From the NCBI RefSeq assembly GCF_003018255.1, contig NZ_CP027440.1: a DNA stretch of 64,000 nt. One strand, written 5' to 3'. The stretch comes from Escherichia coli. GTDB taxonomy: Bacteria; Pseudomonadota; Gammaproteobacteria; Enterobacterales; Enterobacteriaceae. The position numbers were made by a program, and so were the translations under genes. Positions within the stretch are counted from its first letter, which is position 1, and each line of letters opens with the position of its first letter. Below the pieces are notes generated by a model, which saw only the letters and a list, made by a program, of their open reading frames with translations, did not search any database and was not told the origin of the DNA. Positions 25,352 through 27,317 of this stretch are shown one piece after another.

Positions 25352-25409
25352 ATGTTGTTCCTGTTACCGTGGTGTAAATAATCAAATTCAGGGTAATTAA
25401 TGGCCCCGG

Positions 25410-25480
25410 AGCGGGTTTGCGCCCCTCACCCTAATCCTCTCCCCAGAGGGGAGAGGGAACTGCCAGTGCGCCTTACAGGC
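25410..25480 (-). repeat. Intercistronic palindromic element between glnH and glnP
   Basis: Perfect palindrome cctctccccagaggggagagg (25436-25456) embedded in a GC-rich block. Confidence 0.5.
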
Positions 25481-25489
25481 GTAGCGTTA

Positions 25490-26251
<762 letters not shown>

Positions 26252-26282
26252 CTATCCACGGGACGATCCCCTGCGTGACATT

Positions 26283-26307
26283 CACATATATGAAAAAATC
26301 GTGCCAG
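26283..26307 (-). promoter_or_regulatory. Candidate sigma-54 (-24/-12) promoter for glnH
   Basis: Minus-strand reading TGGCACGATTTTTTCATA: GG at -24 and a weak -12 element (TTTCA for TTGCA), ~45-70 bp upstream of the glnH ATG. Confidence 0.45.
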
Positions 26308-26379
26308 TTTTGCAACTCATTGATTTTTCGAGATGCGGCAAAAACGTGATGCACGATTTATAGGGCAATACCCTGAAGA

Positions 26380-26430
26380 TGCACCATTCTGGGGCACCAA
26401 ACTGGTGCGCTAAAATTGTGCACTCAACAC
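26380..26430 (-). promoter_or_regulatory. Candidate NtrC enhancer sites upstream of glnH
   Basis: tgcaccattctggggcaccaaactggtgcgc contains overlapping TGCACC-N-GGTGC dyads resembling NtrC sites. Confidence 0.4.
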
Positions 26431-26639
26431 AGTGATTATTTAGCGTAAAACCTGATGAAAAAACAATCTTTATGTAACGATTGTGTGATGATGTGGATAC
26501 AAAAAATTTACTTAATCAGCTGAAGATAGCAGATGGATGCACTAAATAAGTGCGTTGAGGCGGGCTACAAAACAAAACGGCCTCCTGTCAGGAAGCCGCC
26601 TTTATCGTGTACTAAAGTTCTGCACCATCAGCGATGGAT

Positions 26640-27317
<678 letters not shown>

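What the first reader, a model, noticed from the sequence alone, without database searches (positions are those of the whole stretch)
26283..26430. Sigma-54-type promoter with upstream NtrC-like dyads before glnH
On the glnH strand the sequence reads TGGCACGATTTTTTCATA (GG and a weak -12 TTTCA), with TGCACC...GGTGC dyads 70-130 bp further upstream. This fits nitrogen-regulated control of the glutamine transporter. The -12 element deviates from consensus, implying a weak promoter that depends on activator and DNA bending.
Basis: partly seen in the sequence, partly recalled or inferred. Interest (0 to 1): 0.2.

Follow-up and report, generated by a model that had tools for sequence, protein, structure and literature searches.

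The report
Known nitrogen-regulated glnH promoter (glnHp2)

Summary
The window is E. coli; the dps-glnH spacer is 98.6% identical to K-12. TGGCACGATTTTTTCA lies at 26306-26291 on the minus strand. Published construct coordinates put the glnHp2 start at 26279, so GG is at -26/-25 and TC at -14/-13. Two overlapping NtrC dyads are centred at -109 and -122.

Each motif alone is no more frequent than chance. The combined arrangement occurred in 0 of 4000 simulated 64-kb sequences. In 38 Enterobacterales glnH upstream regions, fetched through a coding-sequence pattern, TGGCA is invariant. The non-consensus T at -14 is kept in 33 of 38. The promoter-to-dyad distance is fixed at 83/96 bp.

Held papers report sigma-54 ChIP-seq, NtrC ChIP-seq, gSELEX and IHF ChIP-qPCR signals here.

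The two differences from K-12 inside the finding fall at degenerate positions.

The only possibly new items are side observations. One is a conserved third NtrC-like dyad about 158 bp upstream of the enhancer. The other is a conserved palindrome over the glnHp1 -35 region.

The parts
26291..26306 (-). Sigma-54 core promoter glnHp2, TGGCAC-GATTT-TTTCA. GG is at -26/-25; TC is at -14/-13 in place of the consensus GC.
   Evidence: Identical to the ChIP-seq motif OS06. TGGCA, T-16, T-15 and C-13 are invariant in 38/38 Enterobacterales; T-14 is T in 33, C in 3, G in 2.
26279..26279 (-). glnHp2 transcription start (+1, G). The 5' UTR is 43 nt, with the ATG at +44.
   Evidence: Mapped from the published -289..+63 construct and both primer sequences in PMC1865078. 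The two primers give the same position.
26313..26325 (-). IHF core site AATCAATGAGTTG (WATCAANNNNTTR), at -46..-34, preceded by an A-tract.
   Evidence: Exact consensus match. It lies inside the IHF ChIP-qPCR amplicon 26388-26283 of PMC8407004. An IHF bend is required at glnHp2. CAA/TTG conservation is 0.76, but the strict core occurs only in Escherichia.
26380..26396 (-). Promoter-proximal NtrC dyad TGCCCCAGAATGGTGCA, centre -109.
   Evidence: 1 mismatch. Half-site conservation 0.83. The GG-to-centre distance is 83 bp across genera. NtrC ChIP-seq and gSELEX support occupancy.
26393..26409 (-). Distal NtrC dyad CGCACCAGTTTGGTGCC, centre -122. It shares a half-site with the proximal dyad, offset by 13 bp.
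   Evidence: 2 mismatches. Half-site conservation 0.78. The GG-to-centre distance is 96 bp across genera.
26406..26422 (-). Third, weak NtrC-like dyad TGCACAATTTTAGCGCA, centre -135. It completes the 43-bp palindrome and is seen essentially only in Escherichia.
   Evidence: Columns are poorly conserved. Its function is not supported.
26327..26379 (-). Looping spacer between the IHF site and the enhancer. The sequence is free but the length is fixed.
   Evidence: Conservation is 0.36 against an intergenic mean of 0.505. The length is invariant except for an 11-bp (one-turn) shortening in two genera.
26430..26430 (-). Approximate start of the upstream sigma-70 promoter glnHp1 (-151 relative to glnHp2). 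The NtrC dyads lie at about +29 and +42 of this transcript.
   Evidence: Derived from the published CRP site ttgTATCCacatcaTCACAcaa centred at -61.5 of glnHp1. No strong sigma-70 consensus was found, consistent with the reported weak sigma-70 holoenzyme binding.
26481..26502 (-). Degenerate CRP site for glnHp1.
   Evidence: Sequence printed in PMC1865078 and found exactly in the window.
25490..26236 (-). glnH, the periplasmic glutamine-binding protein and first gene of glnHPQ (glnP 25351-24692, glnQ 24695-23973).
   Evidence: ORFs. RefSeq annotation of the K-12 locus. GlnH is 100% identical to K-12.
26574..26602 (-). dps intrinsic terminator, the upstream boundary of the glnH control region.
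   Evidence: 13-pair stem followed by a T-run.

Best explanation
The finding is glnHp2, the nitrogen-regulated sigma-54 promoter of the E. coli glutamine ABC transporter operon glnHPQ.

Sigma-54 holoenzyme binds TGGCAC-N5-TTTCA (26306-26291) as a closed complex. That complex is comparatively weak because the -12 element has T where the consensus has G. Under nitrogen limitation, phosphorylated NtrC oligomerises on two overlapping dyads centred at -109 and -122. IHF bound at -46..-34 bends the intervening DNA so that the NtrC ATPase contacts the closed complex and drives open-complex formation. Transcription starts at 26279, 43 nt before the glnH ATG.

A weak CRP-assisted sigma-70 promoter, glnHp1, starts about 151 bp further upstream and supplies expression when nitrogen is not limiting.

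Shown here: the presence, geometry and conservation of the sequence elements. Shown in cited papers: sigma-54, NtrC and IHF occupancy, and NtrC/sigma-54 dependence. Inferred: that this strain, with 2 SNPs at degenerate positions, behaves like K-12, and that the conserved T at -14 is selected to keep the promoter weak and dependent on the enhancer and the bend.
For: Identity: the window is E. coli. The region is found in 5421 of 5426 complete genomes, is 98.6% identical to K-12, and is flanked by annotated dps and glnH. Only two differences from K-12 fall inside the finding: the central spacer of the distal dyad and the NNNN of the IHF core.

Geometry: +1 = 26279 from the published construct coordinates. 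The dyad centres then fall at exactly -109 and -122, and the IHF core at -46..-34.

Chance: the joint arrangement occurred in 0 of 4000 simulations.

Conservation across 38 Enterobacterales upstream regions, fetched through a coding pattern that is blind to the promoter: the sigma-54 16-mer scores 0.91 against a 0.505 background. TGGCA is 38/38. GG-to-dyad distances are 83/96 bp even in Yersinia, where the module lies 132-274 bp from the ATG. The only length change is 11 bp.

Literature:
- sigma-54 ChIP-seq motif and up-regulation of glnH on sigma-54 overexpression
- NtrC ChIP-seq 74.8-fold
- gSELEX RpoN 74% and NtrC 87%
- Salmonella glnHPQ 7.1-fold WT/delta-rpoN, with site TGGCATGATTTTTTCATT
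- IHF bend needed, and IHF ChIP-qPCR on this amplicon
- weak promoter
- tandem p1/p2 with primer extension
Against: Nothing substantive. Single-motif counts in the window are not above chance. The strict IHF core is confined to Escherichia; other genera have AAACAAnnnnTTG, 1 mismatch, and the IHF 13-mer is not significantly conserved (0.61). IHF GeF-seq signal at glnH was below that study's threshold. The primary footprinting and in vitro transcription papers (Claverie-Martin & Magasanik 1991; Carmona et al. 1997) are not held. The -109/-122 values and the 'weak closed complex' rationale are therefore corroborated only by my coordinate mapping, by secondary citations and by memory. No experiment was done on this strain's allele.
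Confidence: 0.97

Rival explanations
1. The dyads act mainly as an operator for the upstream sigma-70 promoter glnHp1. NtrC bound at +29/+42 of the glnHp1 transcript blocks or dampens it, rather than (or as well as) serving as the enhancer of glnHp2.
For: The dyads lie downstream of the inferred glnHp1 start at 26430. The p1/p2 architecture is described as very similar to glnA, where NtrC sites overlap p1.
Against: The GG-to-dyad distance, not the dyad-to-glnHp1 relationship, is what stays fixed when the module moves. NtrC and sigma-54 dependence of glnH expression is published. As an additional role this is not excluded; as the sole role it conflicts with the data.
Confidence: 0.02
2. Chance co-occurrence of degenerate motifs; glnHPQ is transcribed only from a sigma-70 promoter.
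For: Each motif alone is at or below the number expected by chance in 64 kb.
Against: The joint arrangement occurred in 0 of 4000 simulations. The core bases and the spacing are invariant across 38 species while flanking DNA diverges to 35-60% identity. There is direct ChIP and gSELEX occupancy. No sigma-70-like promoter lies near the site.
Confidence: 0.005
3. A sigma-54 promoter, but driven by an enhancer-binding protein other than NtrC.
For: In Salmonella a promiscuous bEBP (DctD250) can activate glnHPQ, so the core promoter is not activator-specific.
Against: The dyads match the NtrC box TGCACCAnnnTGGTGCA, including the most conserved A7/T11 positions. NtrC ChIP-seq and gSELEX peaks are at this locus.
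Confidence: 0.005

Closest known systems
E. coli K-12 glnHp2 (glnHPQ; Claverie-Martin & Magasanik 1991, cited)
   Same: The same locus and the same elements at the same positions. The core promoter, both dyad half-sites and the IHF CAA/TTG bases are identical.
   Different: Two SNPs inside the finding: T instead of A at 26401 (centre of the distal dyad spacer) and T instead of G at 26319 (NNNN of the IHF core). Both are at positions the consensus leaves free.
Salmonella Typhimurium glnH sigma-54 promoter (PMC3844500)
   Same: Same gene and same unusual TTTCA -12 element. Experimentally sigma-54-bound (ChIP-chip ratio 16) and rpoN-dependent.
   Different: TGGCAT instead of TGGCAC at -22, a C/T polymorphism split 22/16 across genera.
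E. coli glnAp2
   Same: An NtrC-activated sigma-54 promoter downstream of a CRP-responsive sigma-70 p1.
   Different: Its NtrC sites are at -108 and -140, 32 bp apart rather than overlapping at 13 bp. It has no obvious IHF site and transcribes well without IHF. It gave higher expression than glnHp2 in the synthetic-enhancer comparison.
Klebsiella pneumoniae nifH/nifU promoters (IHF-assisted sigma-54 class)
   Same: A weak sigma-54 promoter, an IHF site between the enhancer and the promoter, and bend-assisted looping.
   Different: The activator is NifA, not NtrC, and the regulon is different.

Membership tests
Sigma-54 (RpoN) -24/-12 promoter | GG and GC doublets exactly 10 bp apart within TGGCAC-N5-TTGCW | tested here: met
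   TGGCAC-GATTT-TTTCA has 10 of 11 specified bases. The G of the GC doublet is T. The spacing is exact, and the same variant is a ChIP-seq-verified sigma-54 site.
Sigma-54 (RpoN) -24/-12 promoter | Transcription starts about 12 nt downstream of the -12 element | tested here: met
   Not measured here. The published +1, transferred through the construct primers, is 26279, which is 12 nt after A26291.
Sigma-54 (RpoN) -24/-12 promoter | Occupancy by sigma-54 holoenzyme and rpoN-dependent expression | not testable with these tools
   Literature only: ChIP-seq OS06 and up-regulation on sigma-54 overexpression, gSELEX, and Salmonella WT/delta-rpoN 7.1-fold.
NtrC-dependent enhancer (Ntr regulon) | One or more TGCACCAnnnTGGTGCA dyads at least ~70 bp upstream of the promoter | tested here: met
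   Two dyads with 1 and 2 mismatches, centred at -109 and -122, both with A7/T11. Both are conserved at a fixed distance.
NtrC-dependent enhancer (Ntr regulon) | NtrC binding and glnG-dependent activation under nitrogen limitation | not testable with these tools
   Literature only: NtrC ChIP-seq 74.8-fold, gSELEX 87%, and glnHp2 described as NtrC-P-dependent.
IHF-assisted sigma-54 promoters | An IHF site (WATCAANNNNTTR) between the enhancer and the core promoter | tested here: met
   An exact match at 26325-26313, at -46..-34. The window as a whole has 8 such matches against 2.3 expected, so the match alone is weak evidence. Conservation outside Escherichia is only partial.
IHF-assisted sigma-54 promoters | IHF binding and stimulation of activation | not testable with these tools
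   Literature only: bend needed at glnHp2. ChIP-qPCR is positive on amplicon 26388-26283, but the GeF-seq signal was below threshold.

The most novel reading that the evidence does not exclude
The conserved TGCAC-N7-GTGCA dyad at 26554-26538 (-267 of glnHp2, -116 of glnHp1) may be an undescribed third NtrC site, or the site of another regulator. It sits about 158 bp (15 helical turns) upstream of the -109 dyad in roughly 20 genera. By looping to the enhancer it would enclose the glnHp1 core promoter. Such a loop could supply a third NtrC dimer for the activating oligomer and silence glnHp1, giving a p1-to-p2 switch under nitrogen limitation.
Probability: 0.2. Interest if true: 0.3.

Novelty: already known. 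Interest (0 to 1): 0.08.

Why it matters
It matters little as a discovery.

This check adds three things. The elements and the published coordinates map exactly onto this strain. The strain's two SNPs avoid all specified bases. A cross-genus footprint shows that the non-consensus T at -14 and the 83/96-bp promoter-enhancer spacing are maintained across Enterobacterales. This is consistent with selection for a deliberately weak, geometry-dependent promoter.

Tried and rejected
- Primary papers were not obtainable: Claverie-Martin & Magasanik 1991, Carmona et al. 1997 and the Reitzer & Schneider review. The supplement with the glnHp2 IHF mutants is not held, and the IHF sequence is not printed in PMC8899819.
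- The sigma-70 scan of the spacer found no promoter-like site, so glnHp1 could only be placed through the published CRP site.
- Rfam found nothing above gathering score. The only hits were sub-threshold ones on the dps terminator, including STnc70 at E = 0.47.
- The 5'-UTR hairpin is not supported statistically. The single-sequence fold has z = -0.24. The alignment fold gives 3 pairs and a covariation term of -0.24.
- The first chance simulation timed out and was redone vectorised. One repeat finder failed on strand syntax and was redone.
- I considered the third dyad at -135 as part of the enhancer and rejected it, because it is not conserved outside Escherichia.
- Pseudomonas GlnH homologues (~70% identity) show no comparable site within 460 bp, so the module appears limited to Enterobacterales.

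Full report
**1. What is in the sequence**

On the minus strand the window carries dps (stop codon at 26642-26640). This is followed by a strong intrinsic terminator (26602-26574), a 403-bp spacer, and then glnH (26236-25490), glnP and glnQ.

The region 26150-26720 is present in 5421 of 5426 complete E. coli genomes. It is 100% identical to one strain and 98.6% identical to K-12, where the flanking genes are annotated dps and glnH. The encoded GlnH is identical to that of K-12.

The dyads are TGCCCCAGAATGGTGCA (26396-26380) and CGCACCAGTTTGGTGCC (26409-26393). An inverted-repeat search that uses no consensus recovers this enhancer as one 43-bp palindrome at 26380-26422.

**2. Is it more than chance?**

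Individually, no. One sigma-54-like site was found where 3.5 are expected in shuffles, and four NtrC-like dyads where 3.2 are expected.

Jointly, yes. A sigma-54-like site with at least two such dyads 50-150 bp upstream occurred in 0 of 4000 Markov-1 simulated 64-kb sequences. With at least one dyad it occurred in 74 of 4000.

**3. Coordinates against published experiments**

PMC1865078 describes a glnHp1p2 fusion spanning -289 to +63 of glnHp2 and prints both primers. Both primers independently place +1 at window 26279, a G on the minus strand. The other elements then fall as follows:

| Element | Position relative to +1 |
|---|---|
| GG | -26/-25 |
| TC (in place of GC) | -14/-13 |
| Last base of TTTCA | -12 |
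| Dyad centres | -109 and -122 |
| glnH ATG | +44 |

The ATG position matches the '44' distance listed for ChIP-seq site OS06. The -109/-122 values match what I remember from the abstract of Claverie-Martin & Magasanik 1991, which I could not retrieve.

A perfect IHF core, AATCAATGAGTTG, lies at 26325-26313, which is -46..-34.

The published CRP site of the upstream sigma-70 promoter glnHp1 is present verbatim at 26502-26481. That puts the glnHp1 start near 26430, which is the upper edge of the finding.

**4. Differences from K-12**

Eight substitutions occur in 571 bp. Only two are inside the finding: 26401, the middle of the distal dyad's spacer, and 26319, inside the NNNN of the IHF core. 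Neither touches a base that the consensus specifies.

**5. Independent comparative test**

To avoid selecting for the promoter, I fetched glnH loci with a degenerate coding pattern for the peptide DTAFVPFEF. This gave 120 loci. I then located the GlnH start by tblastn.

Almost every Enterobacterales genus sampled has its best sigma-54-like site at 66-82 bp before the ATG. I aligned 39 upstream regions, 38 after dropping the K-12 near-duplicate. Their identity to the window falls to 35-60%.

- T-27, G-26, G-25, C-24, A-23, T-16, T-15 and C-13 are invariant in 38 of 38.
- The 16-mer has mean conservation 0.91 against 0.505 for the spacer as a whole. Only 0.3% of contiguous blocks of the same size do as well.
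- Dyad half-sites score 0.83 and 0.78.
- The looping spacer 26327-26379 scores only 0.36.
- The non-consensus T at -14 is T in 33, C in 3 and G in 2 (both Rahnella). The species are phylogenetically related, so these counts are not independent events.

The geometry is even more constrained than the sequence. The distance from GG to the dyad centres is 83 and 96 bp, within 2 bp, from Escherichia to Serratia, Pantoea and Erwinia. It is the same in Yersinia, where the whole module sits 132-274 bp from the ATG. The only departures are Phytobacter and Pluralibacter at 72/85 bp, shorter by 11 bp, which is one helical turn.

This pattern is what a looping enhancer-promoter unit predicts. The elements are constrained, the phase is constrained, and the intervening sequence is free.

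Pectobacterium, Brenneria and the ~70%-identical Pseudomonas homologues lack the module.

The strict IHF core is found only in Escherichia. Most other genera have AAACAAnnnnTTG. CAA/TTG conservation is 0.76, and the 13-mer as a whole is not significantly conserved.

**6. Published functional evidence**

All of this comes from held papers.

[quoted passage not shown] Both were seen by primer extension. CRP activates p1 and represses p2.
- Sigma-54 ChIP-seq lists CTGGCACGATTTTTTCA upstream of glnH, marked as confirmed in EcoCyc. glnH is one of five genes induced by sigma-54 overexpression.
- NtrC ChIP-seq in nitrogen-starved cells gives a 74.8-fold peak at glnHPQ.
- gSELEX finds RpoN holoenzyme and NtrC peaks in the dps-glnH spacer.
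- In Salmonella the site TGGCATGATTTTTTCATT is sigma-54-bound, and glnHPQ is 7.1-fold higher in the wild type than in delta-rpoN.
- An IHF-induced bend is needed for looping at glnHp2.
- IHF ChIP-qPCR used an amplicon that corresponds to 26388-26283, although the GeF-seq signal there was below threshold.
- glnHp2 is reported as a weak sigma-54 promoter and gave lower expression than glnAp2, nacp and glnKp in the synthetic-enhancer comparison.

**7. Mechanism**

Sigma-54 holoenzyme forms a closed complex on 26306-26291. NtrC-P assembles on the overlapping dyads at -109 and -122. IHF at about -40 bends the DNA and brings the ATPase to the closed complex. Open-complex formation follows, with initiation at 26279.

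- Sequence anatomy and conservation are shown here.
- Occupancy and genetic dependence are shown in the cited papers.
- That the conserved T at -14 is selected to keep the promoter weak, and so dependent on the enhancer and the bend, is an inference. It agrees with my recollection of Carmona et al. 1997, which I could not check.

**8. Verdict**

The feature is already known. One correction to the reasoning: activator dependence is intrinsic to sigma-54 promoters and does not follow from the weak -12 element.

**9. Side observations not in the finding**

(a) A third NtrC-like dyad, CGCACTTATTTAGTGCA, lies at 26554-26538. That is -267 of p2 and -116 of p1, about 20 nt after the dps terminator.
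- It forms a conservation island. GCAC scores 0.8-0.9, while the flanks score 0.2-0.5.
- It is closer to consensus in other genera: 12 of 12 in Superficieibacter and 11 of 12 in Citrobacter.
- It sits 240-243 bp from GG in about 20 genera, which is 158 bp from the -109 dyad.
- It only partly satisfies the A7/T11 positions stressed.
- No held paper that I read mentions it.
- The glnHp1 core lies between it and the enhancer, which suggests a loop. That idea is untested.

(b) A 22-bp palindrome, ACAATCGTTA-CA-TAAAGATTGT, lies at 26484-26463 over the glnHp1 -35 region. It is conserved at 0.6-0.9.

(c) The 5'-UTR stem GGGG-AUCG-(U/C)CCC is conserved in Enterobacteriaceae and is replaced by different hairpins in Pantoea, Mixta and Erwinia. 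The statistical support is weak.

Noticed in passing
window 26538-26554 (minus strand): A far-upstream NtrC-like dyad, CGCACTTATTTAGTGCA, centred at -267 of glnHp2 and -116 of glnHp1, about 20 nt after the dps terminator. It is a conserved island. It is closer to the NtrC consensus in other genera (up to 12/12) and sits at a fixed 240-243 bp from the GG doublet in about 20 genera, roughly 158 bp or 15 turns from the -109 dyad. It is not mentioned in any held paper I read.
   Followed up: partly
window 26463-26484: A 22-bp palindrome (ACAATCGTTA CA TAAAGATTGT on the minus strand, 90% complementary), centred at about -43.5 of glnHp1 and overlapping its -35 region. Both arms are conserved across Enterobacteriaceae. 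No binding protein was identified.
   Followed up: no
window 26256-26276 (minus strand, +4..+24 of the glnHp2 transcript): A 5'-UTR stem-loop, CAC-GCA-GGGG-AUCG-UCCC-GUG, conserved in Enterobacteriaceae. Pantoea, Mixta and Erwinia have hairpins of different sequence at the same place. The fold z-score (-0.24) and alignment covariation (3 pairs, term -0.24) are weak.
   Followed up: partly
L118 (Phytobacter massiliensis) and L062 (Pluralibacter gergoviae) upstream of glnH: The promoter-to-enhancer distance is 72/85 bp instead of 83/96 bp. This is an 11-bp (one helical turn) shortening that preserves phase.
   Followed up: partly
L003, L042 (Yersinia) and L057 (Edwardsiella hoshinae): The whole sigma-54/NtrC module keeps its internal spacing but sits 120-274 bp from the glnH ATG, implying a much longer 5' UTR or inserted DNA. 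Pectobacterium (L025) and Brenneria (L045) have no recognisable sigma-54 site within 460 bp.
   Followed up: no
window 26406-26422: A third overlapping dyad, TGCACAATTTTAGCGCA, centred at -135, makes the enhancer a symmetric 43-bp palindrome of three sites 13 bp apart. It is present in Escherichia but poorly conserved elsewhere.
   Followed up: partly
L093 (record titled Escherichia coli strain SCPM-O-B-8794): GlnH is 99.6% identical to the window's, but the 345 bp upstream are only 76% identical. By contrast, 5421 complete E. coli genomes are at least 95% identical over this region. This record may be a divergent or mislabelled Escherichia lineage.
   Followed up: no
window 25352-25489 (glnH-glnP spacer): A 138-bp spacer inside the operon. 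The plus-strand ORF that starts inside this spacer (25400-25900) begins with 'APHPNPLPRGERE'. From memory, that is typical of REP/BIME-type repeats. Not verified.
   Followed up: no
window 26568-26649 (minus strand): A sub-threshold Rfam match to the enterobacterial sRNA STnc70 (19.5 bits against a gathering score of 40, E = 0.47) over the dps 3' end and terminator.
   Followed up: no
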